From the NCBI GenBank assembly GCA_963764745.1, contig CAVXTN010000006.1:1652313-1716312 (forward strand): a stretch of 64,000 nucleotides of DNA. Direction: 5' to 3'. The number at the start of each line of letters is the position of its first letter. Within the stretch, counting starts at the first letter, position 1. The position numbers and the translations under genes are program-made. A model generated the notes under the pieces. That model was given only the letters and a program-made list of their open reading frames with translations. It was not told where the DNA came from and did not search any database. This document shows, piece after piece, positions 5,628 through 56,181 of the stretch. The DNA comes from Candidatus Aminicenantes bacterium. GTDB lineage: Bacteria > Acidobacteriota > Aminicenantia > UBA2199.

Positions 5628-6434
5628 CTATCGTCGTTCGGGAGGCCCGATCTCCGACGGGCCGCCGCCGGATTTCTCCGAGCCCGGCAGCTCGGCCGGC
5701 CGGGTCTGCACCACGATGCGGTCGTCGCCGGGGAAGGCTCCCGCCACGAACCAGGTGCTGCCGCTCCCGGCCAGCACGGGCACCTCCCCGGTGGCCTCCG
5801 CCAGCCGGTCGCGCCAGGCCGCCAGCCGGGGCTCTACGGCGAGGGCGGCCGCGGCGAGGTCGTTCGGGCCGTCGCCGACCGGGCCACCGAGGCGGTCCCA
5901 GGCGGCGTAGACCTCGGGCGTGGCACAGCCGAAGGGCGGGATGAGCAGCGTGTAGGTGCGCGCCACGAAGGGCAGCGGCTCGACCAGCTCGCCGATCCCG
6001 CGCACCCGGGCCCGGCCGCCACGGACGCAGAACGGCACGTCGGCGCCGATCGACGCGGCCACGGCGAGGTCGTCGACACCGGCCCAGCGGAGCACGGCCG
6101 CCGCGTCGGCCGACGCGCCGCCGAGCCCCCCACCTGCGGGGATGCGCTTGAGGAGCCTCACGTGGGCGGTCCGACCGACGGCCGCCAGCGCCCGGCGCAC
6201 CGAGTTGTCGTCGTCGGGGCCCACGTGCAGGCCACTCCCGGTGCCGACCACGTCGAGGCCGTCGCCGGAGGTCAACTCGAGGGTGTCGGCGAGGTCGAGG
6301 GTGACCATCTCGGCGTCGATGAGGTGGTAGCCGTCGTCGCGCACTGCCGTAACCCTCAGGCTCACGGTGAGCTTCGCGGGCGCGGCGACCACCTCGACGG
6401 CCCCGGAGTCGGTCACCGGCACAGCTTGCCCCAT
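5628..6434 (-). CDS. ispE: 4-diphosphocytidyl-2-C-methyl-D-erythritol kinase
   Basis: GHMP kinase motifs (KLTVSLRVTAVRDDGYHLIDAEMVTLDLAD...PAGGGLGGASADAAAVL). Conserved position downstream of ksgA. Start taken at internal Met MGQAVPV. Confidence 0.85.
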   Translation of the reverse strand: MGQAVPVTDSGAVEVVAAPAKLTVSLRVTAVRDDGYHLIDAEMVTLDLADTLELTSGDGLDVVGTGSGLHVGPDDDNSVRRALAAVGRTAHVRLLKRIPAGGGLGGASADAAAVLRWAGVDDLAVAASIGADVPFCVRGGRARVRGIGELVEPLPFVARTYTLLIPPFGCATPEVYAAWDRLGGPVGDGPNDLAAAALAVEPRLAAWRDRLAEATGEVPVLAGSGSTWFVAGAFPGDDRIVVQTRPAELPGSEKSGGGPSEIGPPERR

Positions 6435-6441
6435 GCCGGCC

Positions 6442-7284
6442 TCACGCCGGGGCGGCGGCGCGGGTGAGCCGGCCCCACGCCTCGAGGTCGAGCTGCTCGG
6501 CACGGGCCGTGGGGTCGACCCCGGCGGCGGTGAAGGCCGCGGCGTCGACGAGCCCACCCAGGGCGCCCCGCAGCATCTTGCGGCGCTGCCCGAACCCGGC
6601 CCTGACCAGGGCGAACAGCTGGTCGGCGTCGGCATCCACCGCCGGACCTCCCGGACGCCTGACGATCTCGACCAGCGCCGACTCCACCCGGGGCCGCGGC
6701 ACGAAGACGTCGGGCCCCACCTTGCCCACCACGCGGGCCGTCGCCCAGTAGGACACCTTCACCGAGGGGATGCCGTAGGCCTTGTCCCCCGGGGTCGCAG
6801 CCAGGCGCTCGGCCACCTCGAGCTGCACCATCACCAGCATCCGCCGGATGGCCGGCACCGCGTCGAGCAGGTCGCACACCAGCGGCGTGGCCACGTTGTA
6901 CGGCAGGTTGGCCACGAGCACCCACTCGGGGGCCGCGGCGAGCACGGCCGACCAGTCGAGCTCCATGGCGTCGCCCGCGACCACCTCCACCCCGGTGCCC
7001 TGCACCGCCTCCTCGAGGACGGGGAGCAGGTGCCGGTCGAGCTCCACGGCGGTGACCGAGGCGCCGGTCTCGGCGAGGGCCAGCGTGAGCGAGCCCAGGC
7101 CGGCACCGATCTCGACGACGTGGTCCCCGTGGGTCACGGCGGCCAGGCGCGCGATGCGGCGCACGGTGTTGGCGTCGGCCACGAAGTTCTGGCCCAACGC
7201 CCGGCTGGGCCGCAGGCCGTGCCGGTCGAGCAGGTCGAGGATCTGACGCCGCGAGTGGGTCACAGGTCGACGAGCGTTGCACAC
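6442..7284 (-). CDS. rsmA: 16S rRNA (adenine1518/1519-N6)-dimethyltransferase
   Basis: LGQNFVAD...VEIGAGLGSLTLAL...ANLPYNVATP are KsgA signature motifs. Confidence 0.9.
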   Translation of the reverse strand: MCNARRPVTHSRRQILDLLDRHGLRPSRALGQNFVADANTVRRIARLAAVTHGDHVVEIGAGLGSLTLALAETGASVTAVELDRHLLPVLEEAVQGTGVEVVAGDAMELDWSAVLAAAPEWVLVANLPYNVATPLVCDLLDAVPAIRRMLVMVQLEVAERLAATPGDKAYGIPSVKVSYWATARVVGKVGPDVFVPRPRVESALVEIVRRPGGPAVDADADQLFALVRAGFGQRRKMLRGALGGLVDAAAFTAAGVDPTARAEQLDLEAWGRLTRAAAPA

Positions 7285-7312
7285 CCGGGCGGGTGCGCCC
7301 GGGGCCGGCCCG

Positions 7313-8191
7313 CTACCAGGTGACGGTGACGCTGATGACGCCGGTGCCGAGGCTGGCCAGCCGGCCGAAGACCTCTTCGCTCAAGTCGATGATGCGCCCG
7401 GCGCCGAAGGGGCCGTAGTCGTCGACGACGCAGCTGGCCGTGCGGCCGTTGGCCGAGATGGTGACCCGGGTGCCACGGGGCACCGTGCGGCTGGCGCACC
7501 CGCCCGGGTTGTGGGCGTAGTAGCTGGCGAGGCCCGACTCGGAGTGGCTGGAGGAGGCCACCGTGGTGGGCGGTGCGGTGGTGGCGGGCGCCGCGGTGGT
7601 GGGCGGGGGCGTCCACGCCGGGGCTGCCGTGGTGGGCGTGGTGCTGGCCGTCTGGCCCGTCGAGGCCGCGGCCGTGGTGGGCGGCTCGGTGGTGGGGGCC
7701 TCGGTGGAGGGCGTGGTGGTGGCGGTGTGCTGCGACGCCGCCGCGGCACGGTGCAGGGCGATGGGCAGGAGCTTGGCGGAGGCGTCGTGGGCGCCCGGGG
7801 CGGGCACGCTCGACGAGCTGCCCGACGGCCCGGCGACGGTGCGGACCTGCACCGTCTTGGCCTGCGGCACCGCGCTGGCCGAGCCACGCGAGACCAGCAG
7901 CAGGGGCAGCATCAGGGCCGTGACCAGCACGGCGAAGAGGATGCCGGGGCTCTCCCAGGGCATGCCGTGGGCGACGGTGGCGGCCGGAGCCGTGACGGTG
8001 GCCGCAGGCCGGGCCGCGCGCCGGGCAGCAGGCCGGGCAGCGCGCCGGGCAGCAGGCCGGGCGGCGCGCCGGGCTCGGCGGGCGTTGGCCGGGAGCCGCG
8101 ACGGCGGCAGCTCGACGCGAGCCTCGGGCGGTAACGGGGGGGAATCGTGCATGAAGTCGACAAGGTTACGAGCGTCGTAACCCAACCGCAA
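7313..8191 (-). CDS. Membrane-anchored RlpA-like (DPBB domain) protein with a Thr/Pro/Ala-rich linker. It sits where RpfB lies in mycobacteria.
   Basis: C-terminal SGLASYYAHNPGGCASRTVPRGTRVTISANGRTASCVVDDYGPFGAGRIIDLSEEVF is an RlpA double-psi beta-barrel. TM helix GILFAVLVTALMLPLLLV. The start may be the internal Met at 8152 (MHDSPP...). Confidence 0.7.
   Translation of the reverse strand: MRLGYDARNLVDFMHDSPPLPPEARVELPPSRLPANARRARRAARPAARRAARPAARRAARPAATVTAPAATVAHGMPWESPGILFAVLVTALMLPLLLVSRGSASAVPQAKTVQVRTVAGPSGSSSSVPAPGAHDASAKLLPIALHRAAAASQHTATTTPSTEAPTTEPPTTAAASTGQTASTTPTTAAPAWTPPPTTAAPATTAPPTTVASSSHSESGLASYYAHNPGGCASRTVPRGTRVTISANGRTASCVVDDYGPFGAGRIIDLSEEVFGRLASLGTGVISVTVTW
8008..8079. 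repeat. Tandem 12/24-nt coding repeat (GCCGGGCAGC[AG][GC])x6 inside the rlpA-like gene
   Basis: Three consecutive 24-nt units (8008-8031, 8032-8055, 8056-8079) encode ...ARRAARPAARRAARPAARRAARPAA... Confidence 0.8.
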
Positions 8192-8259
8192 CTTTCAGAG
8201 GTGTGATCCGTTCCCGTTCGCAACGACCTCGCCGCGCCGGTCTCCCCCGCCGCGCCAGG

Positions 8260-25215: not shown

Positions 25216-26235
25216 CTACCGGCCTCCCCCACCGAGGCCTGCCACGATGTCGGCGAAGTGGGCCGGGTCGGGCTGCCGGGTGCACTCGATGCTGACGGTG
25301 TCGGCCACGCCCGCGAGCTTCTCGCGCACCAGCCCGGGCACCGCGTCGCGACGCCCCACGACGGCCACGGCCTCGATGAGCTCGTCGGGCACCAGCTCGG
25401 CCATGTCGTCCCAGCGGCCCTCCTTCGACAGCCGGTTGAGCTGCGGGTGCAGGCCGTCCCAGCCGTGGACCTCGAGCACGCGGGCGTAGGCGGGCGTCGA
25501 GGCGTAGAAGGCCAGCTGCTTGCGGACCACCGCGATGGAGCGGTCGAGCTCGGCCCCCGTCGCTCCCGTTGCCAGCAGGCACACCACGATGACCTCGAGG
25601 TCGGCCCGGTCGCGGCCCGCGGCCGCCAGCCCGCGCGACACCGCCGGCAGGGTGAGCTCCAGCAGCGAGCGCCGCGTCGAGAAGGGGTGGACGATGACGC
25701 CGTCGCCGACCTCGGCCGCCACCTCGGTGAGGCGGGGCCCGACGGCGGCCACGTGCAGCCGGGCGCGGGGCACGCGGTGCGGTCCGGGGTCGAACGCGGG
25801 GGTCATGAGCGTGTGGCGGTAGAACTCGCCCTCGAAGTGCAGCGGGGCGATCCCGTCCCAGGCGTCCCAGATGGCGCGGATGCCCAGCACCATCTCCCGC
25901 ATGCGCGCGGCGGGCCGCGACCACGGCATCGAGTAGCGCCGCTCGATGTGCGGCCGGACCTGCGTCCCGAGGCCGAGCGTGAAGCGGCCGTCGCTCAGGT
26001 GGGCCAGGTCGTGGCCCACGTTGGCGAGCGTCATGGGGGTGCGGGCGAAGGCGATGGCGATGGCCGTGCCGAGGCGCAGCCGGGTGGTCGTGCGCGACGC
26101 CAGCGCGAGCGGCAGGAACGGGTCGTGCTTGGTCTCGTACGAGAACGCGCCGTCGTAGCCGCAGGCCTCGAGCTCGGCGAACAGCTCGCCCGCCGCGGCG
26201 ATGTCGTCGAAGGGCGTGGTCGTGAACACCTGCAC
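25216..26235 (-). CDS. LLM class F420-dependent oxidoreductase (luciferase-like monooxygenase family)
   Basis: MQVFTTTPFDD...GYDGAFSYETKHDPFLPLALA...LGTAIAIAFARTPM... Confidence 0.8.
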   Translation of the reverse strand: MQVFTTTPFDDIAAAGELFAELEACGYDGAFSYETKHDPFLPLALASRTTTRLRLGTAIAIAFARTPMTLANVGHDLAHLSDGRFTLGLGTQVRPHIERRYSMPWSRPAARMREMVLGIRAIWDAWDGIAPLHFEGEFYRHTLMTPAFDPGPHRVPRARLHVAAVGPRLTEVAAEVGDGVIVHPFSTRRSLLELTLPAVSRGLAAAGRDRADLEVIVVCLLATGATGAELDRSIAVVRKQLAFYASTPAYARVLEVHGWDGLHPQLNRLSKEGRWDDMAELVPDELIEAVAVVGRRDAVPGLVREKLAGVADTVSIECTRQPDPAHFADIVAGLGGGGR

Positions 26236-26303: not shown

Positions 26304-26909
26304 ATGCTCGACCACGTGTTCACCGACGCCATCGGCGCCCTCCGCGATGCCGTCGAGAGCGCGTTCCTCGAGCGGCAGGCCTTCGAGGAGCGCTTCCAGG
26401 CCGACGTGCTGCTGGGCGACCTCACCTGGGAGACGTCCTACTCACTGCCCGGCGAGGGCTCGCCGCCGCGCACCCGCGCCGACATCACCCTCGACTGGCC
26501 CACCTGGGCCCAGAGCGCGTACCGCTCGTGGTACATCGGCGAGCCGTTCGACGAGCCGCCCCGCGTCGAGATCGAGATCGTGCTGCGGATCCAGCGCCTC
26601 GCCAAGGCGCCCGACCCCGCGGCGGTGCTGGGCGTGCTGCCCGAGCAGAGCGCGGCGGTCGGCAACGAGAAGCTCGACCGGTCGGGCCCCACCGTCGAGA
26701 CCGCGTACGGCAGCGACCTCGACGACGTCGAGTACGCCATCGAGGTGTCGTACGAGGGCACCTACGAGCTCGACGAGGCCACCCTCGCCGACGGCTCGGT
26801 GCTCGACGAGCACTTCGGCGCCATGGGCGGCTGGATCGCCTCCACCCTCGTGCGCCTGGGCGACCTCCAGTTCGACTTCCTGCCACCCGAAGACGAACCC
26901 GCTTCCTGA
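26304..26909 (+). CDS. Hypothetical protein, 201 aa
   Basis: Intact ORF ending 25 nt before the RBS of the enoyl-CoA hydratase gene. No recognisable domain. Confidence 0.45.
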   Translation: MLDHVFTDAIGALRDAVESAFLERQAFEERFQADVLLGDLTWETSYSLPGEGSPPRTRADITLDWPTWAQSAYRSWYIGEPFDEPPRVEIEIVLRIQRLAKAPDPAAVLGVLPEQSAAVGNEKLDRSGPTVETAYGSDLDDVEYAIEVSYEGTYELDEATLADGSVLDEHFGAMGGWIASTLVRLGDLQFDFLPPEDEPAS

Positions 26910-32122: not shown

Positions 32123-32321
32123 GGGCAGGCGGTCCTTCGAGCAGCGGGGACGCAGGAGTCTTGCAGCCTTCGGTGACCCCGGTCACCCCGAGTCACGCCG
32201 GCCCAGAGAGCATCGGCACGCCGGCACCGGATCCTGAGCCTCGCGACGCCGAGGCGGCTCTCCGCTCGCCCTCCCGGAACTACGCTCCACTCTCCGTCCC
32301 GCAAGTCCGAGGAGCACCACC

Positions 32322-34883
32322 GTGGCCGACCCGCAGGGCGCCGACCCGCACCGCCTCCCCCGAACCGTCGTCCCGAGCCGCTACGACCTGGTGCTCGAGC
32401 CCGACCTCGACGCGGGCACGTTCCGCGGCACCGTCGCCGCGTCGGTCGACGTGGTCGACGCGGTCGCCGAGCTGGTCCTCAACGCCATCGAGCTGGTCAT
32501 CGACGAGGCCTGGGTCGTCGACGCCAACGGCACCCGCAGCGACGCCTCGGTCAGCTACGACGAGGCCACCGAGCGCGCCACGCTGTCGTTCGACGGGGCC
32601 CTCGTCACCGGCACCGCCACCGTCCACGCCTCGTTCCGCGGCATCCTCAACGACAAGCTCCACGGCTTCTACCGCTCCACCTTCACCGACGCCGACGGGC
32701 ACCACCCGCACGCTCGCCACCACCCAGTTCGAGTCCACCGACGCCCGCCGGGCCTTCCCGTGCTGGGACGAGCCCGACTTCAAGGCCGTCTTCGGCGTGA
32801 CCCTCGTGGTGCCCGCCGACCTGCTCGCGCGTCTCGAACGGCGCCGAGGTCGGCCGCGAGGACACCGGCGACGGCCGGGTGCGGGTGCGCTTCGCCGACA
32901 CCATGCTGATGTCCACCTACCTGGTGGCCTTCGTGGTCGGGCCGCTCGAGGCCACCGACCCGGTCGACGTCGACGGCGTGCCGCTGCGCGTCGTGCACGC
33001 CCCCGGCAAGGCCCACCTGGCCGGCTTCGCGCTCGAGATCGGCGCCTTCGCCCTGCGCTACTTCGCCGACTACTACGGCATCCCCTACCCGGGCGACAAG
33101 CTCGACCTCGTGGCCATCCCCGACTTCGCGTTCGGGGCCATGGAGAACCTCGGCTGCATCACGTTCCGCGAGACCGCGCTGCTCGTCGACCCGGCGACGC
33201 GCCACCCAGCCCGAGCTCGCAGCGCGTCGCCGACGTGGTCGCCCACGAGCTCGCCCACATGTGGTTCGGCGACCTCGTCACCATGAAGTGGTGGAACGGC
33301 ATCTGGCTCAACGAGGCGTTCGCCACGTTCATGGAGATCGCTCGCCGTCGACGCACTTCCGCCCCGAGTGGAAGCGCTGGACCACCTTCGGCCTCGAGCG
33401 CTCGGCCGCCTTCGACATCGACTCGCTCGCCGCCACCCGCCCCATCGAGTTCGAGGTGCGTGTCGCCGGCCGACGCCGAAGGCATGTTCGACGTCCTCAC
33501 CTACGAGAAGGGCGCGTCGGTGCTGCGCATGCTCGAGCAGTACCTCGGCGAGGAGCGCTTCCGCGACGGCATCCGCCTCTACCTGGCACGAGCACGCCTA
33601 CGGGAACACCGAGACCACCGACCTGTGGGACGCCCTCGAGGCGGCCACCGGCGAGCCGGTCCGCCGCATCATGGACACCTGGATCTTCCAGGGCGGGCAC
33701 CCCGTCATCGGCGTCGACCTCGCCGCCGAGGGCACGGTGCTGCGCCTCACCCAGGAGCAGTTCCGCTACCTGGGCGGCGACGCGGGCGCCCGCTGGGCCG
33801 TGCCGGTGCTGGTGCGCTGGGCCGACGCCTCCACCGGCGACGTCCACGAGCGCAAGGAGCTGCTCGACGGCGACGCGCTCGAGATCGACCTGCCCACCGC
33901 GGCCTCGTGGGTGGTGGCCAACAGCGGCGCCAGCGGCTTCTACCGGGTGCGCTACACGCCCGAGCTGCGGGCTGCCGTCACCGCTCGGGCGCAGGCCTCG
34001 CTGAACCCCGCCGAGCGCTACTCGCTGGTCGACGACACCTGGTCGTCGGTGCTGGCGGGCACCACGCCCGCGTGCGAGTTCCTCGAGCTGGCCGCGGCGT
34101 TCGGCGACGAGCCCGACGTGTCGGTGTGGCGCCGCCTCATCGGTGCCCTCGCCACCCTCGACCGCATCTCCGACGACGCCACGCGCGACCGCCTGGCCGC
34201 GTTCGTCGGCACGCTCCTGTCCCCGGCGCTCGACCGGCTCGGACCCGCGCCGCTGGCCGACGAGCCCGAGCGCGTCACGGTGCTCCGGGCCGCGCTGTTC
34301 GAGGCCCTCGGCGTGCTCGCCCACGACGAGCGGGTGCTCGAGCAGTCGCGCCGCATCCTCGCCGGCGAGGTGGAGGTCGACCCCGCCACCGCCGACGCCG
34401 CGGTGCGGGTGGTCGCCGGCCACGCCGACACCGCCACGTTCGACGACTTCCTGGCGCGGTCGAAGGCCGCCACCACGCCGCAGGACACCTTGCGCTACCT
34501 CGGTGCCCTCGCCGACGTCGACGACCCCACGCTCTTCGCGCTTCCTCGATCTGCTGCTGGGACCCGACGTCCGCACCCAGGACGCGGGGCTGCTCCTCAA
34601 CCGGGCGCTCACCAACCGGGTCAACGCGGCCACGGCGTGGACGTTCGCCACCTCGCACTGGGACGAGCTCATCGAGCGCCTGCCCACCAACGCGGTGTCA
34701 CGCATGATCACCGGCGTCCGCACCTTCCACGACGCGGCCCTGGCCGCCCAGGTCGAGGCCTTCCTCGAGGCGCATCCCGTGCCCCAGGCCGCCCGCGCCT
34801 TCGCGCAGCACCTCGAGCGCATCCGCGTCACGGTCGGGCTCGCCGAGCGCGAGCAGGCGCGGCTGAGCGACGCCCTGTCGTGA
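32322..34883 (+). CDS. pepN: Aminopeptidase N (M1 family). At least seven frameshifts.
   Basis: Reconstructed across frames: ...[13 protein letters not shown]... (GAMEN), [31 protein letters not shown] (HEXXH...E zinc site), and the ERAP1-like C-domain. The first frameshift is a G insertion in a GGG run at ~32690. Confidence 0.85.
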
Positions 34884-36136: not shown

Positions 36137-36170
36137 CACTGGGCGACTGGACTCGAGGAGGCGGAAACGA

Positions 36171-37788
36171 GTGACGAACCCAGGAGGGAGCAGGCTCTCG
36201 CGGTTCGCCCGCATCCAGGTCCTTCCCGACCCCGGCGCGCCGTGGCGACCGACCTGGCCGTTCGTGCTGATCGCGGCCACCGCCTTCCCCCTCGCCCTGC
36301 TGCCGCTGGGCGTCCCGTCGAACGCCAAGCTCGTCACCCTCGCCGCGGTGTTCTTCGTCATCGCGGCCGCGCTCACGCTGCTGCCGAGCACCCGATCGCT
36401 GCTCGCGTCCGACGACACCTTGCCCGACCAGCGCTGGTGGCTGCGCCCGCTGGCGGCGCAGGTGCCGGTGCTCTTCTGGTGCCTGACCGTCGCCACGCTG
36501 CAGGCGTCCGGCGGTGGTGCCCGGGCCGGCTACGCGCCCCTGCTCATCCTCCCCATCGTCGCCCAGGCGGTCATCGGCACCCGTCGCGACCTGTTCGCCT
36601 CGCTGCTGCTCACCACCCTCACGTTGCTGCTGCCGGTGCTGGTGGTCGGGCCCCCGCGCTACCCCCGCTCGGAGATCCGTGGGGCGGTGCTGTGGCTCAT
36701 CTGCTCGGCGGGCGCGGGCCTGGTCATCGAGCAGCTGGTGCGTGCCGGGCGCGACAAGCAGGCGGCGGTCAGCGCGGTCGCGCAGCTCACCCGTGAGCTC
36801 GACGAGGCGCCCGACGTGGGCCGGGCCATCGCCAACGGCGCGGTGCGGATCATCGGGGCCGACGTGGCCCTGCTGCACGAGCCTGCGGGCCCGGCAGGGC
36901 TGGCACGCCTCGGCTGGGCGGTCTCCGGCTCCGAGCTGGCCACCCGCAGCGAGGCGCGCGTCGAGGCCCACGCGCCGCCCGACAACGTGGCCGCCGACAG
37001 CGGTCCGGGCCTCGTCCTCGCCGCGCGAGCCGTCGTTCTCGATCGGCGCCATCGACCCCACCGACGCCACCGACGAGCTCGATGACTGGCTCGGCGGGCA
37101 GCAGGTCACGTCGGTGCTCCACGTGCGGGCGACGCGCCACTGGCGGCGCCATGTCGTGCTCACGCTCGGGTGGCGCCACATCGGGGTGTCGGCCATGCAC
37201 GACGTGCTCCCCATCGCCGAGCTGCTCGCCAACGAGGCGGTGGCCGCGTTCGATCGGGCCGACCTCGTCTCCGGGCTCGCCAGCGACGCCGCCCACGACG
37301 CGCTCACCGGCCTCCCCAACCGCCGGGCGTGGGACAAGGTGCTCACCACCGAGGTCAGCCGCGCCCGCCGCTCCCGCCAGCCGCTCGCGGTGGTGCTCCT
37401 CGACCTCGACCACTTCAAGGCCTTCAACGACACCCACGGCCACGTGGCGGGCGACTCGCTGCTCCACGACGCCGCGCAGGCCTGGGTGTCCGACCTCCGC
37501 GACACCGACATGCTGGCGCGCTGGGGCGGCGAGGAGTTCGGCCTGCTCCTGCCGAACACGCACGTGGAGGTGGCCGTCGACGTGGTCGAGCGGCTGCGGG
37601 CCGAGACCCCCGGCGACCAGACGGTCTCGGCCGGCCTGGCGATGTTCCACCCGCAGGCCGACGCCACGTCGCTCACCGATGCGGCCGACCGGGCCCTCTA
37701 CGCCGCCAAGCAGGCCGGCAGGAACCGCCTGGCCATCGCCCGCGTCGACGGCAACGGCGACGGCGTCGGGGTGGGCGTCGTCAGCTGA
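36171..37788 (+). CDS. Membrane-anchored diguanylate cyclase (GGDEF). Frameshifted near 37040.
   Basis: An N-terminal ~6-TM sensor region, then ...DALTGLPNRRAWD...RWGGEEFGLLLP (GGEEF active site). Confidence 0.8.
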
Positions 37789-38329
37789 CGGGCCGGTAGG
37801 CCACGTGACCGGCGACGTCCTCGACGGTGACCTTCTCGCGGAAGCGCTGGGTGCCCACGGTGACCGCGCAGGTGAAGCTGCCCTTGGGGGCGATGACCCG
37901 CACCGGGCTGGTGCCGCAGTCGACGGTGACCGCGCCCGGCGCTCCGTCGTGGGCGTAGAGCGTGGCCAGGCGCGTCCGGAGGTCCTGCACCGTCTTGTCG
38001 ACCACGATCACGGCCGCCGCGGGCTTGAACGACACCCGCCCGGTGTCGTCGAGCTGCGTGACGACGATGCCGACCTTCTGCCCCTGCACCACCGTGGAGC
38101 ACTGGAACGTGGCTCCCTTGGCGAGCGGCACCCGATCGGGGCAGTGCGTCCCCGACACCGGCGCAGGCTGGTAGTAGGCGGCCAGCTTCGTCCCGATCTG
38201 CTGCTGGGCCTTCGAGGTGTCGAGCTGGTCGTGGTGGCTGCACGACGCGAGGCCGAGCGCGGCCGCCACCAGCACCAGCCCTGCCACCAGACGAGGTCGC
38301 GGGGTGCGGCGGCGCGTTCGGGAGACCAT
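37781..38329 (-). CDS. DUF4333 domain lipoprotein
   Basis: Signal peptide plus lipobox LGLASC, then the DUF4333-like ...VSGTHCPDRVPLAKGATFQCSTVV...CAVTVGTQ. Confidence 0.6.
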   Translation of the reverse strand: MVSRTRRRTPRPRLVAGLVLVAAALGLASCSHHDQLDTSKAQQQIGTKLAAYYQPAPVSGTHCPDRVPLAKGATFQCSTVVQGQKVGIVVTQLDDTGRVSFKPAAAVIVVDKTVQDLRTRLATLYAHDGAPGAVTVDCGTSPVRVIAPKGSFTCAVTVGTQRFREKVTVEDVAGHVAYRPVS

Positions 38330-38412: not shown

Positions 38413-39051
38413 CTACGGCAGGAGCGACAGCACCAGGCCCACCTGGCCGAGGTGGTAGGTGACCATGACGGCGAGCCGCCCACCCTTGAAAGGGTTGACG
38501 AACTTGTTCCAGGCGAGGGTGCCGTCGGACGCGAAGAAGAGCAGCGCGCCGACCATGGCCCAGGCGTCGCCCGAGCCGATGGCGCTGGCGACCATCGCGG
38601 AGATCACCACGAGGTACGCGAGGACCGGGCCCACGAGCCCCGGCTCGTCGCCCGCCCGCACCGCCCGCACGATGTGTCGGCCGAGCGTGGCCGCGCCCAC
38701 CGCCACCACCACCAGGCCGACCACCAGCAGCCCGGCGTGCTGGGGACGGAACCAGAAGCCCACCACGTAGCAGACGTGGCCCACGAAGAACGCGGCCAGG
38801 CCTTCGATGAACCGCTCGCGCGGGAGCATCAGGAACACGTCGCCGGCGAGCGAGGCCACCAGCCCTGCCACGAACCAGGCGCGGGTGGCCCCGTACTCGG
38901 GGTGGAGCGTGACCGCCACGCCGACGAGCAACGCGAGGGTGGCCGGCTTGGCCACCCATTCGAGGGGCCGGCGCCCGGTCGCGACCGCGACCCAGTCGAC
39001 GACCGCCGCGACCAGCGCCAGGGCCAGCAGCGCCGAGGCGGCCGTGGTCAT
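38413..39051 (-). CDS. YhhN family (lysoplasmalogenase/TMEM86-like) membrane protein
   Basis: 212 aa with ~7 TM helices and the LAGDVFLM...FFVGHVCYVVGF...LFFASDGTLAWNKF motifs. Confidence 0.7.
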   Translation of the reverse strand: MTTAASALLALALVAAVVDWVAVATGRRPLEWVAKPATLALLVGVAVTLHPEYGATRAWFVAGLVASLAGDVFLMLPRERFIEGLAAFFVGHVCYVVGFWFRPQHAGLLVVGLVVVAVGAATLGRHIVRAVRAGDEPGLVGPVLAYLVVISAMVASAIGSGDAWAMVGALLFFASDGTLAWNKFVNPFKGGRLAVMVTYHLGQVGLVLSLLP

Positions 39052-39080
39052 GCCCTCGAGGTGCACGGTGTGGCCCGCAC

Positions 39081-40275
39081 TCAGAACTGGGCGAGCGCGT
39101 CGTCGAAGCTGATGCGCTCGGCGATGGCGGAGCGGAGCTGCATGACGTGGCGGGGGCGGTTCATGCCGAGCACGCCCACCAGGCGACCCGCCCGCCCGTA
39201 GAGGGCCACGAAGCGACGCTCGTCGAGCGAGCCCTCGACCACGCGCACCTCGTCGTCGGGACGGGGCCGCCCGGCGAGCTGGAGCTTGCGGTCGTACTGG
39301 TCGGACCAGAACCACGGCACCGCGGCGAACGGCTCGGCCTCGTCGCGGCCCGCCAGCAGGGCCCGGGCCGCGTGGGCGGCCTGGCCGAAGGCGTGGTCCC
39401 AGTGCTCGACGCGCATGACCTCGCCGTCGAACGTGGGGTTGGGCCAGGCGGCGATGTCGCCGGCGGCCACCACCCCGGCCGCCGCGAAGCAGGCCTCGTC
39501 GCACTGCACGCCGTTGCCGAGCTCGAGGCCGGAGCCTTCGAGCCACTCGGTGTTGGGGATGACGCCGATGCCGACGACGACCACGTCGGCGGCGACGGAG
39601 GTGCCGTCGGCCAGCACCACCCGCTCGACGCGGCCGTTGCCCTCGATGCTGTCGACGCCCACGCCGAGCCGCACGTCGACGCCCTCGTCGCGGTGCAGGT
39701 CGGCGAACACCTGCCCGATCTCGTTGCCCAGCACCCGCCCGAGCGGCACGGGCAGGGGCTCGACGATGGTGACCGCGAGCCGCGTGCTTGCGGCAGGTGG
39801 CCGCCACCTCCGCGCCGATGAAGCCCGCGCCGACCACGACGACGTGCCGTGGGCCCGCGGTGAGCGCCGCGCGGAGCGCGAGGCAGTCGTCGAGGGTGCG
39901 CAGCGCGAACACGCCGGCCATCGACTCGGTGCCGGGCAGCGTGCGGGCGCGCGCCCCGGTGGCGATGACGAGGCCGTCGTAGTCGAGCTCCTCGCCGTCG
40001 TCGAGCGTCAGCGTGCGGCGGCCCAGGTCGAGCGCCGAGGCACGTCGACCGAGGCGCCACTCGACCGAGAGCATCTCGTCGACGGCGGCCGGCAGCACGA
40101 TGCGGTCGGGCTCCCACTCACCGGCGAGGACCTGCTTCGACAGCGGCGGCCGGTCGTAGGGGGTGTGGGCCTCGTCGCCGACCACGATGATGCGGCCCGT
40201 GTAGCCCTCGTGGCGGAACGTCTCGGCCGCCTGCATGCCGGCGATGGACGCGCCGGCGATGACGATGGATTGCAG
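39081..40275 (-). CDS. Ferredoxin--NAD(P)+ reductase (FAD-dependent pyridine nucleotide-disulfide oxidoreductase, putidaredoxin-reductase type). Frameshifted; start codon unclear.
   Basis: ...IVIAGASIAGMQAAETFRHEGYTGRIIVVGDEAHTPYDRPPLSK... in ORF 38413..40236. C-terminal half in ORF 39081..39749. The GxGxxG motif lies upstream of the first ATG, so the start is a non-ATG (CTG at ~40275) or hidden by an indel. Confidence 0.7.
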
Positions 40276-40278
40276 GGG

Positions 40279-40473
40279 TCAGTCCTCCGCTATCGACAAC
40301 GCCTGCTTGGGGCAGCGCCGCACGGCTTCCTCGATCTTGTCGCGCATGCTCTCGGGCGGGGTCTCGTCGAGGATGTAGAGGAAGTCGTCGTCGCGCACCT
40401 CGAACACCTCGGGGGCGATCCCCATGCAGATGGCGTTGCTCTCGCAGAGGTCGAAGTCACACACGACGCGCAC
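40279..40473 (-). CDS. Ferredoxin (single-cluster 3Fe-4S/4Fe-4S type, 64 aa)
   Basis: VRVVCDFDLCESNAICMGIAPEVFEVRDDDFLYILDE...AVRRCPKQALSIAED. GTG start follows the RBS GGGGGACCA. Confidence 0.75.
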   Translation of the reverse strand: MRVVCDFDLCESNAICMGIAPEVFEVRDDDFLYILDETPPESMRDKIEEAVRRCPKQALSIAED

Positions 40474-40518
40474 GGGTTGGTCCCCCTGGGGTTGGCTTCG
40501 GCCGGGCCGGTCCCGACC

Positions 40519-40549
40519 GTCACGGGACCTGGCGTCCCGTCCGCGTGAC
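40519..40549. promoter_or_regulatory. Nested inverted repeat GTCACGGGAC-ctggc-GTCCCG-tccgc-GTGAC in the divergent promoter region between the ferredoxin operon and the SnoaL-like gene
   Basis: Perfect 6-bp IR CGGGAC/GTCCCG, flanked by outer GTCAC/GTGAC arms. Located 46-76 nt upstream of the ferredoxin start. Confidence 0.45.
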
Positions 40550-40605
40550 CGTAGCGCGATCCTCGTGCCGGTAACGTCCGTACACGCCGACCCGGGGGAA
40601 GTGCC

Positions 40606-41070
40606 ATGAGCTACGACCGTGACGAGATCGAACAGGCCTTCCAGCGCTACGCGGCCGCGGCCGCCGACGCCGGCCGCACCGGCGACTGGGGGCCGTGGGT
40701 CGAGTGCTTCACGCCCGACGTCCACTACATCGAGCACCTCTACGGCGACTTCCACGGGCGCGCCGACGTGCTGGCCTGGATCACCCGCACCATGACCGAG
40801 TGGCCCTTCACCCAGATGCAGATCTTCCCGTGGGACTGGTACACGGTCGACGCCGAGCAGGGCTGGGTGGTGGGCCAGGTCGAGAACCGCTTCGTCGACC
40901 CCGGCGACGGCAAGGTCTACGAGGCCGCCAACTGGACGCGGCTCGTCTACGCGGGCGACGGCCTGTTCTCGTCGGAGGAGGACGTGTACAACCCGGCCGA
41001 GTTCGGCCCGATGGTGCAGGGCTGGCTCGAGGCCTGGGCCCAACACCACCCCGACGAGCCGAAGGGCTAG
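40606..41070 (+). CDS. NTF2-like/SnoaL-like (DUF4440-type) protein
   Basis: MSYDRDEIEQAFQRYAAAAADAGRTGDWGPWVECFTPDVHY... 154 aa, intact. Confidence 0.6.
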   Translation: MSYDRDEIEQAFQRYAAAAADAGRTGDWGPWVECFTPDVHYIEHLYGDFHGRADVLAWITRTMTEWPFTQMQIFPWDWYTVDAEQGWVVGQVENRFVDPGDGKVYEAANWTRLVYAGDGLFSSEEDVYNPAEFGPMVQGWLEAWAQHHPDEPKG

Positions 41071-41474
41071 GGGGTCGCGGCGGGGGCCTCGAGCCGGAAC
41101 GTGGGGTGGTCGGCCGCGTCGGGCAGGTCCTTGAAGTAGCCGGCCACCATCTTCCCCTGGATGCGCTGGTAGGTGTCGAGCACGGGCTGGCGCTCGCCCA
41201 CGGGCACCTCGACGGCGCCGAGGGTCTCCGACACGCCCTTCCGGGTGAGCTCGACCGACCCGGCCGCGCGCACGTTCTTCACCCAGGCGGACTCGCCCCG
41301 CGTGGAGACCAGGTAGCGGGCCCCGTCGTGCTCGATCGGCAGGACGGGCACCTCGCGGCGCTCGCCCGACGTGCGACCCACGACGGTCAGCTTGTAGGTG
41401 CCCGACAGGCCGAACTTCATGGCGAGGGGGTTGAAGACGTTCTTCGTGAACCACGGTGGTGGCTTGTACGCCAT
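41067..41474 (-). CDS. Deazaflavin (F420H2)-dependent nitroreductase family protein (Ddn-like/DUF385)
   Basis: ...VFNPLAMKFGLSGTYKLTVVGRTSGERREVPVLPIEHDGARYLVSTRGESAWVKNVRAAG... is a classic Ddn-family core. Confidence 0.75.
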   Translation of the reverse strand: MAYKPPPWFTKNVFNPLAMKFGLSGTYKLTVVGRTSGERREVPVLPIEHDGARYLVSTRGESAWVKNVRAAGSVELTRKGVSETLGAVEVPVGERQPVLDTYQRIQGKMVAGYFKDLPDAADHPTFRLEAPAATP

Positions 41475-41483
41475 GGCGGCCTC

Positions 41484-42241
41484 CTACGAGCCCATCGCGC
41501 CGATGCCGAACACCGCGCCCTGCGGGTCGGCGATGACCGCACCACGCCCGAAGTCCATGTCGTTCGGCGGCACCAGGACGGTGCCGCCCAGCTCGGCGGC
41601 CTGCGCGGCCGACGCGTCGCAGTCGTCGACCGCGAACCACACCGACCAGGCGGGGAACTCGCCCTCGCCGGCGGTGTGGGCGCCGCACACCATCTCGCCG
41701 TCGACCGTGAAGGCCCCGTCGGCGGCCCCGTCCGCGCCCGACGACACGCCCCAGCCGAACAGCGCGGTGTAGAAGCTGCGGGCCGTCGGCCACGTCGGTG
41801 GTGGCGAGCTCGTTCCAGGTGAAGGTGCCGGGCTCGTTCACCAGCGTGGCACCGATGTGCTGGTCGGGCTGCCACACGGAGATGAACGAACCGACCGGGT
41901 CCTGGATGACGCCCATGCGCCCGGCGTCGAACACGTCCATGGGGCCGGCGATGACCGTGCCGCCGTTCTCGGCCGCCGTCGCCGAGCGCGGCATCGGCGT
42001 CGGCCACGGTGACGTAGACGGCCCAGAACGGGGGCATGTCGGCGTTCATCTGGGGGCCGACGCCGGCCACGTTCTGGCCGCGGAGCGTGAACAGCCCGTA
42101 GCCGCCCGCTTCGGGCCGAGGGTCCATCGCGACCTCCCACCCGAACAGGGCGCCGTAGAACGCGGCGGTGGCAGCCGTGTCGGGGCTGCCGAGATCGATC
42201 CACGAGGGGGTTCCGGGCGCGTACGAGGTGCGTTCGGTCAT
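41484..42241 (-). CDS. Two-domain VOC family protein. At least two frameshifts.
   Basis: Domain 1 MTERTSYAPGTPSWIDLGSPDTAATAAFYGALFGWEV... (ORF 41417..42241). Middle part in ORF 40279..41994. Domain 2 ...DGEMVCGAHTAGEGEFPAWSVWFAVDDCDA...ADPQGAVFGI (ORF 41484..41747). Confidence 0.6.
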
Positions 42242-52667: not shown

Positions 52668-54393
52668 GTGTCCGTCCCCGCCTCCCCGAAGGTCGCAGCC
52701 CCCGGTCCCGACGGAGCACCCGCCACGACCGACGAGCCCACCACGCCCACCGAGCCGGAAGGGCCGGAGCAGGTCGGGCGCCGGGGCCGGTGGCTCGAGG
52801 CCCTCCCCGCGCTCGCCGCAACCGTGGTGCTGCTCGCCGCCGGCACGGCGCTGCTGGCCACCACGTGGCACCCCGTCGGCGACTACGCGATCGCCGAGAT
52901 CATCGTCCGCCACTCGTTCCCCCACCCGCCCCTCTTCGGGCCCTACTCGGGCACCCGGCCCTACCACCACCCGCTCCCGCTCGTCTACGCCCTGGTGTGG
53001 GCGCCGTACGAGCTCTTCGGCCAGCGGTCGTCGGCGCAGCTCGCCGCCACGGTGTGGTTCAACGCGGTGCTCATCGGCCTGCTCGTGTGGCTCACCGCCC
53101 GCCGGCGGGTGCTCGGCCTGGGCCTCCTCCTGCTCGCGGGCATCACGGTGTTCGCCCGAACCAACCAGCCCGGTCACCTGTCGGTCCCCTGGAACCCCTA
53201 CCTCGGCTTCGTGCCCGCCGTGGTCCTGGTGGTCGCGGTGTGGCAGACGACGCTCGGCCGGCGCTGGTACCTGCCGCTGGCCACCGGCCTGGCGACGTGG
53301 TGCGTGGGCGCGCACATCGGCTACGCCCCCACCGTCGTCGGCCTCGCGGCCGTCACCATCGTGGGTCTGCCGCTCGCCCTGGTGCGCCAGCACGGCCGCG
53401 CCGGGTGGCGCCTGCTCGGGTGGCCCCTCCTCGCCTCGCTCGGCGTGCTCCTGCTGATGGTGTCGCCGGCGCTGGCCGACCTCGCGCAGCACGGCTCGAC
53501 CAGCAACCCGTCGGCGATCTGGAGGTGGGTGCAGACCTCCAAGGACCCGATCATCCCCCGCCACACCGCGTGGCAGGCGATCTTCGGCGACCTGTCCCTC
53601 CGGTCCACGTGGGCCACCGGCCACCGCCCGTACGCCGTGTTCGGCCGGCTCCCCGACACCCCGGTCCCGCTCCTCCTCGTGCCGCTCGTGCTGGCCTTCG
53701 CGTTCGCCGCGTGGCGCCGCGCGGGCGACGAGCTCGCGGCGCTCGTCACGGTGTCCGTCGCGGTGCTCACCACCGCCATCGGCATCCTGAACCTCCAGTC
53801 CGACCACCTCGTCGACTGGTACCTGCTCCCGATGCACGCCATGGGGGTGAGCCTGGCGGGCATCGTCGTGTGGTCGCTGTGCCGCAGCGCGTGGCACGTC
53901 ATCGGCCCGCACGTGTCGCTGACCGAGCCGCGTCGCCGGCTCCTGCGCACGGCGGGCGCCACCGTGGTCGCCGCCGCGCTCGCGCTGCTCATCGTGCCCA
54001 CGCTCCACGAGCAGAAGGTCACGGCCGACATGGCGGCCGCGCCCGCCTCGCTGGTGGCCTCCGTCGAGCGGGTGGTCCCCAAGAGCCACACCATCGTCCT
54101 CGAGTCGCCGTACCTGTACGACGGCTACCACCCCGAGGCCCTGGCCCTCGACCTCGACCGCGCCGGGTACACCGTGCGCTACCTGCCGCGCGACGCCAAC
54201 CTCTTCGGGAAGGGCCTCACCATCATCCCCAAGGGCCGGCCGGTCACCTACCTCTACACGAAGCTCTCGAGGCAGGCCGACTACAGCCCGGCGCCCGGCG
54301 CCCGCCGCATCGGCCAGACGGCTCCCGGTCCCCGCGGTGCTCGTGCCGGGGCTGGCGCCGATGGTGGTGTGGCTGATGCCGGGTCCCCCCTAG
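52668..54393 (+). CDS. Large polytopic membrane protein (~570 aa, possible GT-C-type glycosyl/mannosyltransferase-like). The C-terminal boundary is uncertain.
   Basis: GTG start overlaps the thioesterase stop (GTGA). 12 or more predicted TM helices. A CCCCCC run at ~54383 precedes an out-of-frame TAG, so the read-through to 55538 is probably an artefact. Confidence 0.5.
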
Positions 54394-55259
54394 GCCAGTC
54401 GGGGTCGGACCTCGTCGAGGAAGTCGTGCACGGCCTCCCACCAGGCCTCGGGGTTCTCGAACTGCGGGCTGTGCCCGGCATCGGGGATCTCGACCCGGCG
54501 GGCGTCGGGGATGGTCGTGGCCATGCGGTGCGACGCGGCCACGAACGGCCGGTCGAGCTCGCCGACGAGCACCAGCACCGGGATCTCGATCGTGGCGAGG
54601 GCCGGCAGCTGGTCGGACTGGGTGGCGGTGATCTCGATGGCGAGCGAGGCGTACATGGCCGGCGAGGCGCCGAGCAGCTTGCGGTCGCCGAACTCCGCGT
54701 AGCCCGGACGCTCGGCGATCAGGCGGCGGTGCGCCGGGGTGCTGAGGGCGTCGTCGGCCCGCTCGGCCTGGAGCCGGGCCAGCTCCGCCATGCCCCGCTC
54801 GCGGACGATGTGGGCCGCGGCCTGCGCCATCGCGGGGTCGAGCGCGGCGGGGGCCCGGTGGTGCGTGTCCATGAGGACGACGGCCACGAACCGGTCGGGG
54901 TGGCGGAGCACCAGCCGCTGGGCGATCATCCCGCCCATCGAGTGGCCCAGCAGCACGCAGCGGTCCCACCCGAGGACGTCGAGCAGGGCCAGCACGTCGG
55001 CCACGAAGATGTCGATGGAGTAGTCGGCCTCGTCGGCTGGCGAGTCGCTGGTGCCGTGGCCCCGGTGGTCGGGGGCGACGACGTGCCACCCGTCGGCCGC
55101 GAGTGGCCCGACGAAGTCGGCGAAGTCCTCCTTGGCCCCGGTGAAGCCGTGGAGGAGCAGCAACGGGAGCCCGCCCTCGCCCGCCTCCAGCACGCTCAGG
55201 CGGACCGGCTCGAGCCGGATGTCGCGCTCCTGCACGGTGGGGGCGTCGTCGGGCATGGC
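54391..55259 (-). CDS. Alpha/beta fold hydrolase
   Basis: ...LLLLHGFTGAKEDF...VLLGHSMGGMIAQ...DAGHSPQFENPEAW... 289 aa, intact. Confidence 0.8.
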
Positions 55260-55270
55260 TGCTCCTCGGT

Positions 55271-56181
55271 TCAGTTGGCGGGCGCCCCGGGCAGCGACGA
55301 GCCGGACCCGAGGCTCTTCATGAGGGCTGTGAGGGGTCGAAGGTCTGGACCTGGTCGGCGGGCGGGCGCGGTGATGGTGACGGGCCCGCCGAGGTCGGTG
55401 AAGTCGATGGTCAGGCGACGCCGACGCCGGTCGCGCGACGAGCCCGAGTCCGCCAGACCCTGCAGGCGCCGTGATCGAGAGTCTGCTGACGCACGAGCAG
55501 GCCCTGCCCGTCGACCCAGACGTCGACGGGCATCGTGATCGAGCCGACGAGCCCGCGTGTCCGCGCCCGGCCGCCCTTGGCGAGACCTTCGACGGGTCGA
55601 CCGTGCCGTGGTAGTGGGTGGTGTCGACGCCGTCGATGGTCTCGTGGCCCACCACCGTGAGGTCGCCGGTGACCGACCTGCAGCTCGTCGAGCATCTGCT
55701 GGGGTCCATCGGCCGCGTCGCGAGCTGTCCGAGCTCGGGAGGCGGGCGCACCGATGGCCATCCAGGGCTTGTCGGTGGTCGACCCGAGCCCGCGGGCAGC
55801 TTCAGGTACATCTTCCCGTCGACGACGACCATCTCGGCTCGTGGCCCCCAGGGACCCGAGGCCGGCACGTCCAGTCTGCGTGGCCCCGGCGTCGAGGTCG
55901 TAGGCGCCCGTCGCGGTGATGCTAGTCGTTGCCCGGCTGACCCGATCCCGAGGTGGTGATCTTGAAGCGGCCGGTGCGCAGGCCGACGTGGCGGCGGCCG
56001 CCTGCTTCGCGAACGAGGCTTGGACCACCTGGCCCGATGCCGCCTGTTGCGCGTGCCCGCCCGTGGTGCCCACCGTGCGCGTGCTGTCGACGCGCACCCC
56101 GCACGAGGCGGTGAGCCCCATGGCGACGAGACCCGCCGCTGCCGCCCATCGACGGGGATGAACCGTCCGCTGCCCGATCAT
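55271..56181 (-). CDS. Putative lipoprotein. At least three frameshifts; boundaries approximate.
   Basis: MIGQRTVHPRRWAAAAGLVAMGLTASCG gives a signal peptide plus lipobox. Further plausible fragments are in other frames (...MVVVDGKMYLKLPAGSG..., ...GDLTVVGHETIDGVDTTHYHGTVDPSKV...). Confidence 0.4.

What the first reader, a model, noticed from the sequence alone, without database searches (positions are those of the whole stretch)
38413..40549. Ferredoxin / ferredoxin reductase / YhhN operon without a cytochrome P450 partner
A 64-aa single-cluster ferredoxin (40279..40473) is followed by a putidaredoxin-reductase-type FAD reductase (39081..40275) and a YhhN/TMEM86-family membrane protein (38413..39051). 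All are co-directional with 4- to 30-nt spacing. A nested inverted repeat (40519..40549) sits in the promoter, facing a divergent SnoaL-like gene. Ferredoxin plus reductase pairs normally feed P450s or Rieske oxygenases, and none is present here. YhhN homologues are lysoplasmalogenases (vinyl-ether hydrolases). An electron-transfer chain wired to a YhhN protein is unusual. It suggests a redox-dependent membrane-lipid reaction, for example on ether or plasmalogen-type lipids, that has not been described.
Basis: inference. Interest (0 to 1): 0.55.

Follow-up and report, generated by a model that had tools for sequence, protein, structure and literature searches.

The report
Ferredoxin, reductase and YhhN operon
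This is a real, tightly packed operon that recurs in about half of related Acidimicrobiia, but the evidence points to an ordinary stand-alone electron-transfer pair sitting next to an ordinary lipid hydrolase, not a new redox-driven lipid reaction.

Summary
The three genes are present, co-directional and correctly identified by family. As printed, the reductase ORF is broken by one extra G at 39780-39781. Four independent contigs that are 96-97% identical lack that base, and the window carries many indels elsewhere, so this is most likely an assembly error. The reductase starts at a CTG codon that is conserved in its sub-clade.

The order Fd-FdR-YhhN occurs in 38 of 80 YhhN loci from Acidimicrobiia species genomes. 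The reductase stop and the YhhN start often overlap by 4 nt. The block also appears in two different genomic settings, so it behaves as a real operon. No P450 lies in the 64 kb window or in any of the linked loci.

The two parts separate freely, however. About half of the orthologous Fd-FdR pairs have no YhhN, sometimes at the same syntenic site. A whole YhhN clade has no Fd-FdR nearby. Linked YhhNs keep all eight hydrolase residues and carry no clade-specific Cys, His or charged residues.

Best reading: a general-purpose [3Fe-4S] ferredoxin/reductase pair that feeds acceptors encoded elsewhere, co-transcribed with a cofactor-independent lysoplasmalogenase-type hydrolase. The promoter inverted repeat is no more than background. 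Interest is low to moderate.

The parts
40279..40473 (-). Single-cluster ferredoxin, 64 aa, GTG start, motif CXXNXXC(X)nCP (predicted [3Fe-4S])
   Evidence: Pfam Fer4_15 4.9e-10. The closest solved chain is 8amp, the M. tuberculosis 3Fe-4S Fdx, at 3.3e-11, followed by the CYP51-Fd fusion 6mcw. Orthologues are 69-85% identical and 51 of 62 carry the CESNA[IVL]C motif.
39081..40275 (-). FAD-dependent NAD(P)H:ferredoxin reductase of the putidaredoxin-reductase/ArR type. It has a CTG start at 40275 and is interrupted in this window by one extra G at 39780-39781.
   Evidence: Pfam Pyr_redox_2 2e-62 and Reductase_C 7e-21. PDB matches: 3lxd 8.5e-74, 3fg2, 6tuk, 1q1r. The frame switch is seen. The gene is intact in L161, L162, L164 and L165.
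38413..39051 (-). YhhN/TMEM86-family 8-helix membrane protein, 212 aa (alternative GTG start at 39066)
   Evidence: PF07947 3.4e-42. AF2 model with pLDDT 95 and 8 helices. K35, G70, D71, H92, G168, S175, D176 and Y199 are invariant. Their spacings match the eight residues tested in TMEM86A/B (PMC11994398).
37781..38329 (-). DUF4333 lipoprotein (lipobox LASC). It is co-directional, 83 nt after YhhN, and is probably the fourth gene of the operon.
   Evidence: PF14230 3.2e-15. It follows YhhN in L001, L002, L005-L007, L020, L031, L166, L169 and L170. It follows FdR directly in L084, L087, L098 and L103.
40474..40605 (.). Divergent intergenic region between Fd and the SnoaL-like gene. It contains the small inverted repeat at 40516-40552.
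   Evidence: The repeat is real but at background frequency. No sigma-70-like promoter or terminator was detected.
40606..41070 (+). SnoaL-like protein, divergent. It belongs to a lineage-specific insertion and not to the conserved block.
   Evidence: Pfam SnoaL_4 and SnoaL_2 at about 3e-07. It is found upstream of Fd only in the window and its 96-97% relatives L164 and L165.

Best explanation
The locus is a four-gene operon on the minus strand: Fd, FdR, YhhN and a DUF4333 lipoprotein. It is typical of one clade of Acidimicrobiia. FdR takes electrons from NAD(P)H through FAD and passes them to the small [3Fe-4S] ferredoxin. The ferredoxin then serves acceptors encoded elsewhere in the genome, most likely P450s, and possibly other ferredoxin-dependent enzymes. 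YhhN is a cofactor-independent membrane hydrolase of the lysoplasmalogenase family that acts on vinyl-ether lysolipids or a related lipid. It is co-transcribed with the redox pair, and often translationally coupled to it, but does not depend on it mechanistically.

Shown: family identities, operon architecture, partial conservation, independence of the two parts, and retention of the hydrolase residues. Inferred: the cluster type, the identity of the electron acceptors, the YhhN substrate, and that the frameshift is a sequence error.
For: 1. Identity. Pfam and PDB matches. The CXXNXXC(X)nCP motif matches the purified [3Fe-4S] P450-type ferredoxins of M. marinum (PMC6237146).
2. Fd-FdR is the stable unit. 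Fd is 69-85% identical across families. The pair is followed by different genes in different genomes:
- YhhN (many loci);
- DUF4333 alone (L084, L087, L098, L103);
- PfkB (L081, L085);
- rpsO-pnp (L173);
- a giant protein (L171);
- hopanoid genes (L168, L172).

On the FdR side, about 11-12 orthologous pairs have YhhN and about 14 do not.
3. YhhN is independent. 23 loci of the B/C clade have no Fd-FdR. The conserved core is the same in both clades, with no A-specific Cys, His or charged residues.
4. The eight catalytic-type residues of TMEM86A/B are retained with matching spacing. Characterised family members are plain hydrolases (PMC9052158, PMC3137066).
5. More distant FdR/Fd relatives (FdR 44-50%, Fd 29-43% identity) do sit next to P450s (L139, L141, L144, L146, L159). 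P450s exist in the class (L030).
6. No FdR-YhhN fusion among the 120 best FdR hits.
7. The frameshift is absent from L161, L162, L164 and L165. The window has 15 gap openings in 5.6 kb against L001 and splits PepN, GGDEF and VOC genes that are intact in relatives.
Against: - The FdR stop and YhhN start overlap by 4 nt in at least 10 species and lie within 1 nt in 3 more.
- Adjacency survives changes of the upstream neighbour: AlkZ-like, CoA-transferase, SDR, CAP and alpha/beta-hydrolase genes.
- It survives a local rearrangement in L002.
- It survives relocation of the whole block next to rpsO-pnp.
- Fd-FdR-linked YhhNs form one clade.
These points show selection for co-expression, which could reflect a functional link.

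No acceptor for the ferredoxin was identified, because whole genomes could not be scanned.
Confidence: 0.62

Rival explanations
1. Redox-coupled YhhN. In this clade the ferredoxin delivers electrons to YhhN or to a YhhN-bound partner, for an oxidative or reductive reaction on ether, vinyl-ether or other membrane lipids. Alternatively, YhhN anchors the soluble redox pair at the membrane.
For: - Conserved order with 4-nt stop/start overlaps.
- The block is kept together in two chromosomal contexts and after the L002 rearrangement.
- No local P450.
- Linked YhhNs are monophyletic.
- In L082 and L083 a divergent YhhN that has lost D176 and Y199 is still kept directly after FdR.
Against: - Both partners occur without the other in about half of the lineages, sometimes at the same site.
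- There are no clade-specific metal- or cofactor-type residues, and the hydrolase residues are all retained.
- No fusion proteins were found.
- The AF2 model shows no similarity to any redox membrane protein; there are no PDB hits at E<=0.001.
- Known family members carry out a plain hydrolysis with no redox step (PMC9052158).
- No paper links YhhN and ferredoxin reductase.
Confidence: 0.1
2. Decaying operon. The frameshift at 39780-39781 is real, so FdR is a pseudogene in this strain and the cluster is being lost.
For: - The window sequence as given has the extra base.
- Several other genes in the window are also split.
Against: - Four independent assemblies at 96-97% identity have an intact gene.
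- Both halves keep a strong coding signature (GC3 about 0.94).
- The window has about one indel per 370 bp against L001. These fall in housekeeping genes such as PepN, a pattern typical of consensus errors.
Confidence: 0.1
3. Pure synteny. Fd-FdR and YhhN are neighbours only by descent within a conserved housekeeping region, with no selection for co-expression.
For: - The downstream genes PepN and PfkB are conserved as well.
- The association has a single origin.
Against: - The upstream neighbours vary while the trio stays contiguous.
- The block recurs next to rpsO-pnp.
- Overlapping stop and start codons occur in many species.
Confidence: 0.15

Closest known systems
Actinobacterial class I P450 redox partners. 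Examples: M. tuberculosis FdR (Rv0688) with the 3Fe-4S Fdx Rv0763c; M. marinum Fdx4, Fdx7 and Fdx11 (CXXNXXC(X)nCP); ArR/Arx; PuR/Pux; PdR/Pdx.
   Same: - The same two protein families and the same cluster-binding motif with Asn at the variable position.
- A small acidic ferredoxin of about 64 aa.
- FdR with two Rossmann motifs and a Reductase_C domain.
- Best solved matches are 8amp, 3lxd, 3fg2 and 1q1r.
- Some members, such as Fdx11/Rv3503c and Rv0688, also lack an adjacent P450 (PMC6237146).
   Different: - No P450 within 64 kb here, or within about 6-8 kb in the 38 linked genome loci.
- The pair is highly conserved across Acidimicrobiia families.
- It is followed by YhhN and DUF4333 in about half of the lineages.
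- FdR starts with CTG in this sub-clade.
YhhN/TMEM86 lysoplasmalogenases: human TMEM86A and TMEM86B, L. pneumophila Lpg1991, M. tuberculosis Rv1401
   Same: - Full-length PF07947 match.
- Eight predicted transmembrane helices.
- All eight residues proposed or tested as catalytic (K, G, D, H, G, S, D, Y) are present with matching spacing.
   Different: - No characterised member is encoded in an operon with a ferredoxin and its reductase.
- The natural substrate in free-living aerobic Acidimicrobiia is unknown.
- No solved structure exists for comparison.

Membership tests
YhhN / TMEM86 lysoplasmalogenase family (PF07947) | Full-length match to the family profile | tested here: met
   E 3.4e-42, 144.6 bits against a cut-off of 25.6. 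Residues 31-210 align with profile positions 2-182 of 182.
YhhN / TMEM86 lysoplasmalogenase family (PF07947) | Eight transmembrane helices | tested here: met
   The AF2 model has 8 helices, pLDDT 95 and pTM 0.89. The hydropathy profile shows 7-8 segments.
YhhN / TMEM86 lysoplasmalogenase family (PF07947) | Eight conserved putative active-site residues (TMEM86A K43, G81, D82, H104, G182, S189, D190, Y213) | tested here: met
   K35, G70, D71, H92, G168, S175, D176 and Y199 are invariant in 22 homologues. The spacings are 35/1/21/76/7/1/23, against 38/1/22/78/7/1/23 in TMEM86A and 34/1/20/67/7/1/23 in TMEM86B. The residues were mapped by spacing, not by direct alignment to TMEM86.
YhhN / TMEM86 lysoplasmalogenase family (PF07947) | [quoted passage not shown] | not testable with these tools
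   This needs an enzyme assay.
Putidaredoxin-reductase-type NAD(P)H:ferredoxin reductases | Pyr_redox_2 fold with FAD and NAD(P)H GxGxxG motifs, plus a Reductase_C domain | tested here: met
   Pyr_redox_2 2e-62 and Reductase_C 7e-21. GASIAG and GAGFIG are present and invariant in orthologues. 3lxd matches at 8.5e-74.
Putidaredoxin-reductase-type NAD(P)H:ferredoxin reductases | Uninterrupted open reading frame | tested here: not met
   The window has an extra G at 39780-39781, which splits the gene into two frames. The gene is intact in L161, L162, L164 and L165, so a sequence error is likely.
[3Fe-4S] single-cluster P450-type ferredoxins | CXX?XXC(X)nCP motif with a non-Cys residue at '?' | tested here: met
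   The window has CESNAIC...CP. Asn occupies the variable position in 51 of 62 orthologues. The motif class is described in PMC6237146. The cluster type itself was not measured.
Complete class I P450 system (P450 + Fd + FdR in one cluster) | A P450 gene in or next to the operon | tested here: not met
   No heme-binding signature and no tblastn hit in 64 kb. None of the 38 linked genome loci has one. Upstream genes are AlkZ-like, CoA-transferase, SDR, CAP and NUDIX.

The most novel reading that the evidence does not exclude
In one clade of Acidimicrobiia a YhhN-family membrane protein has become the terminal partner, or the membrane dock, of a dedicated ferredoxin/ferredoxin-reductase pair. This would give a redox-dependent transformation of ether-type or other membrane lipids that no characterised YhhN/TMEM86 enzyme performs. 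The translational coupling of FdR and YhhN, and the retention of a catalytically degenerate YhhN after FdR in L082 and L083, would then reflect a physical complex.
Probability: 0.09. Interest if true: 0.7.

Novelty: new member of a known kind. Interest (0 to 1): 0.25.

Why it matters
If the ordinary reading holds, the value is mainly in annotation:
- It identifies a highly conserved orphan [3Fe-4S] ferredoxin/reductase pair that is probably the general P450 or ferredoxin-enzyme reductant of Acidimicrobiia.
- It shows that YhhN here keeps the hydrolase active site.
- It flags a sequence error and a CTG start that automatic pipelines miscall. JGI and ENA gene calls truncate the FAD motif by starting at the internal ATG.

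If the minority reading were true, it would give the first redox-linked function for the YhhN/TMEM86 family. That family is relevant to plasmalogen turnover in humans and to M. tuberculosis lipid detoxification.

Tried and rejected
- **P450 just upstream in relatives.** The roughly 405-aa divergent gene (c13) looked like a candidate by size, but it is an AlkZ-like DNA glycosylase (2.1e-57). The roughly 420-aa c5 gene is a family III CoA-transferase.
- **Readthrough or fusion of Fd and FdR.** In the window the Fd TGA is in frame with FdR. This is due to an extra C in the spacer that L161 lacks, so it is not a fusion.
- **Operator in the promoter.** The inverted repeat is at background frequency. 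It is identical in 97% relatives and therefore uninformative.
- **Clade-specific redox residues in YhhN.** None were found.
- **FdR-YhhN fusion proteins.** None among the top 120 FdR homologues.
- **NCBIfam equivalogs.** None passed the cut-off for Fd, FdR or YhhN.
- **Structure comparisons.** There is no sequence or fold match in PDB for YhhN. The AFDB library was unavailable.
- **Literature.** No paper holds both 'YhhN' and 'ferredoxin reductase'.
- **Other oxygenases in the window.** Only a luciferase-like monooxygenase (Pfam Bac_luciferase) was found, at 25216-26235, 13 kb away. From general knowledge this family uses flavin or F420, not ferredoxin.
- **Not done.** The window was not fully scanned with Pfam for Rieske proteins. 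Whole-genome co-occurrence could not be computed.
Full report
**1. What is in the sequence**

The window is about 73% G+C. Between 38413 and 40473 the minus strand carries three genes.

- **Ferredoxin, 40473..40279.** It has a GTG start and encodes 64 aa. Pfam gives Fer4_15 at 4.9e-10.
- **Reductase, ending at 39081.** Once repaired, it matches Pyr_redox_2 at 2e-62 and Reductase_C at 7e-21.
- **YhhN, 39051..38413.** It encodes 212 aa and matches PF07947 at 3.4e-42 over the whole profile.

A fourth co-directional gene, a DUF4333 lipoprotein at 38329..37781, follows after 83 nt. A SnoaL-like gene at 40606..41070 is divergent.

The ORF list, a GC3 frame plot and direct translation all show a frame switch. 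No ATG, GTG or TTG lies between the ferredoxin stop and the FAD-binding GxGxxG motif. Only the CTG at 40275 is available.

**2. The frameshift and the start codon**

Four independent metagenome contigs are 96-97% identical to the window: L161, L162, L164 and L165. All four carry an uninterrupted reductase. The window has one extra G at 39780-39781 (CACGCGGCTC against CACGCGCTC). It also has one extra C in the 2-3 nt Fd-FdR spacer.

The window is rich in indels generally.
- Against L001 (95.1% identity) there are 15 gap openings in 5.6 kb.
- The PepN, GGDEF and VOC genes are each split across frames here.
- The GGDEF gene is intact in L001, and the VOC gene is intact in L164 and L165.

I therefore read the frameshift as an assembly or consensus error. 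A real pseudogene cannot be excluded without the reads.

The CTG is not an error. It is present in L161, L006, L002 and L088 at the position where L084 has ATG (MRSVAVIG against LQSIVIAG, LRRIAVVG and LDTVAVVG). Automatic gene calls start at the internal ATG (384 aa) and so cut off the FAD motif.

**3. Family placement**

*Ferredoxin.* The cluster motif is CESNAIC...CP. This is the CXX?XXC(X)nCP class with Asn at the variable position. That class was shown to bind [3Fe-4S] in M. marinum Fdx proteins that serve P450s (PMC6237146). Its best solved relatives are the M. tuberculosis 3Fe-4S Fdx (8amp) and a CYP51-ferredoxin fusion (6mcw).

*Reductase.* It is closest to ArR (3lxd), PuR (3fg2), putidaredoxin reductase and BphA4. 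No NCBIfam equivalog passes its cut-off.

*YhhN.* K35, G70, D71, H92, G168, S175, D176 and Y199 are invariant among 22 homologues. Their spacing matches the eight residues mutated in TMEM86A and TMEM86B (PMC11994398). An AlphaFold model built on that alignment has eight helices and pLDDT 95. It matches no solved structure at E<=0.001.

**4. Is the gene order conserved?**

*From the YhhN side.* YhhN homologues are all from Acidimicrobiia. A scan of species-representative genomes returned 80 YhhN loci. In 38 of them Fd and FdR lie directly upstream on the same strand. Four further loci are cut by contig ends. The 38 include Iamiaceae, Aquihabitans, Microthrixaceae, Ca. Microthrix, Acidimicrobiaceae and Actinospongicola.

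- The FdR stop and YhhN start overlap by 4 nt in ten loci and lie within 1 nt in three more.
- In Iamiaceae a NUDIX gene is inserted between FdR and YhhN. Elsewhere a CoA-binding gene or an unknown gene occasionally sits there.
- Upstream neighbours vary: AlkZ-like glycosylase, CoA-transferase, SDR, CAP and alpha/beta-hydrolase genes. None is an oxygenase.
- No P450 signature occurs in the window or in 79 of the 80 loci. The one exception, L030, has no Fd-FdR.
- In L002 the order is rearranged to YhhN-DUF4333-Fd-FdR.
- In L166, L169 and L170 the block Fd-FdR-YhhN-DUF4333 lies next to rpsO-pnp instead of PepN/PfkB.

The block therefore behaves as an operon and not merely as regional synteny.

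**5. Are the parts dependent on each other?**

They are not.

*YhhN without Fd-FdR.* A neighbour-joining tree puts nearly all linked YhhNs in one clade. A second clade of 23 loci sits in other contexts (PdxH/VOC/YihY, or crotonase) and never has Fd-FdR.

*Fd-FdR without YhhN.* A metagenome scan with an FdR alignment and eight look-ups of FdR homologues give an unbiased view from the FdR side. Among pairs whose Fd is at least 68% identical, about 11-12 are followed by YhhN and about 14 are not. The pairs without YhhN include loci at the same syntenic site:
- L084: Fd-FdR-DUF4333.
- L087, L098 and L103: Fd-FdR-DUF4333-like, then PepN and PfkB.
- L173: Fd-FdR-rpsO-pnp.
- L168 and L172: hopanoid genes follow.

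*No sign of a changed YhhN function.*
- Comparing linked and unlinked YhhN clades shows the same conserved core. There are no clade-specific Cys, His or charged residues.
- None of the 120 best FdR homologues is fused to YhhN.
- More distant FdR/Fd relatives (FdR 44-50%, Fd 29-43% identity) sit beside P450s in the classical way (L139, L141, L144, L146, L159).

**6. Promoter repeat**

The inverted repeat exists. Repeats of equal quality start at 821 positions in the window, about 13 per kb. The intergenic RNA fold is unremarkable at z = -1.18. The repeat is identical in 97% relatives, apart from another single-base indel in the window. No sigma-70-like promoter or terminator was found.

**7. 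Interpretation**

The stable, strongly conserved unit is the Fd-FdR pair. YhhN, DUF4333 and NUDIX are optional [24 protein letters not shown] are co-transcribed when present.

The most likely mechanism runs NAD(P)H to FAD (FdR), to the [3Fe-4S] ferredoxin, to acceptors encoded elsewhere. YhhN acts separately as a vinyl-ether lysolipid hydrolase, as shown for purified family members (PMC3137066, PMC9052158). I give this a confidence of about 0.6.

The tight coupling, and the retention of a degenerate YhhN after FdR in L082 and L083, are real observations. No direct evidence supports the idea, however, and several lines argue against it. I put it at about 0.1.

Orphan Fd and FdR genes without a neighbouring P450 are already familiar in actinobacteria (PMC6237146). 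The finding is therefore a new member of known kinds, with low to moderate interest.

Noticed in passing
window 32280-34830 (PepN), 36170-37790 (GGDEF), 41484-42241 (VOC/glyoxalase), 39780-39781 (FdR): Many single- and double-base indels split otherwise conserved genes into several frames. Against L001 (95.1% identity) there are 15 gap openings in 5.6 kb. In close relatives the GGDEF gene (509 aa in L001) and the VOC gene (253 aa in L164 and L165) are intact. The window looks like an indel-prone consensus, possibly from long reads.
   Followed up: partly
window 40273-40275; L161, L006, L002, L088: The reductase has a conserved CTG where other lineages have ATG or GTG. The CTG lies 2-3 nt after the ferredoxin stop in the window, L161, L006 and L002 (TGAccCTG), and 9 nt after it in L088. 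It is a likely non-canonical start, or a case of termination-reinitiation. Public gene calls start at an internal ATG and truncate the FAD-binding motif.
   Followed up: partly
L082 5200-5832 and L083 5201-5833: A divergent YhhN (36% identity) sits directly after Fd-FdR. It has lost the catalytic Asp (S-D becomes S-A) and the Tyr (TYHLGQ becomes TGHLGQ). It may be a pseudo-enzyme retained next to the reductase.
   Followed up: no
L168 (Ca. Poriferisocius, 6379-11203) and L172 (6192-9200): In sponge-associated Acidimicrobiia the orthologous Fd-FdR pair lies between thiolase-like/ChsH2-OB genes and a hopanoid-type cluster. That cluster has two SQS_PSY genes, an amine-oxidase-type gene, a polyprenyl synthase and a squalene-hopene cyclase. 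The thiolase-like/OB genes also precede Fd-FdR in L081, L085, L087, L096 and L098.
   Followed up: no
window 40606-42241; L164, L165: SnoaL-like, F420H2_quin_red (DDN-like) and VOC genes form a lineage-specific insertion between the CAP-domain gene and Fd. The otherwise syntenic Aquihabitans-type loci (L005, L007, L031) lack these genes and instead have a NUDIX gene between FdR and YhhN.
   Followed up: partly
window 37781-38329 and L084, L087, L098, L103, L166: A DUF4333 lipoprotein is as frequent a downstream partner of FdR as YhhN. It overlaps the YhhN stop in L166, L167 and L170, and the FdR stop in L087.
   Followed up: partly
window 52668-55538 (+) and 26304-26909 (+): Two ORFs with a good coding signature, of 956 aa and 201 aa, have no Pfam match at E<=0.001.
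   Followed up: no
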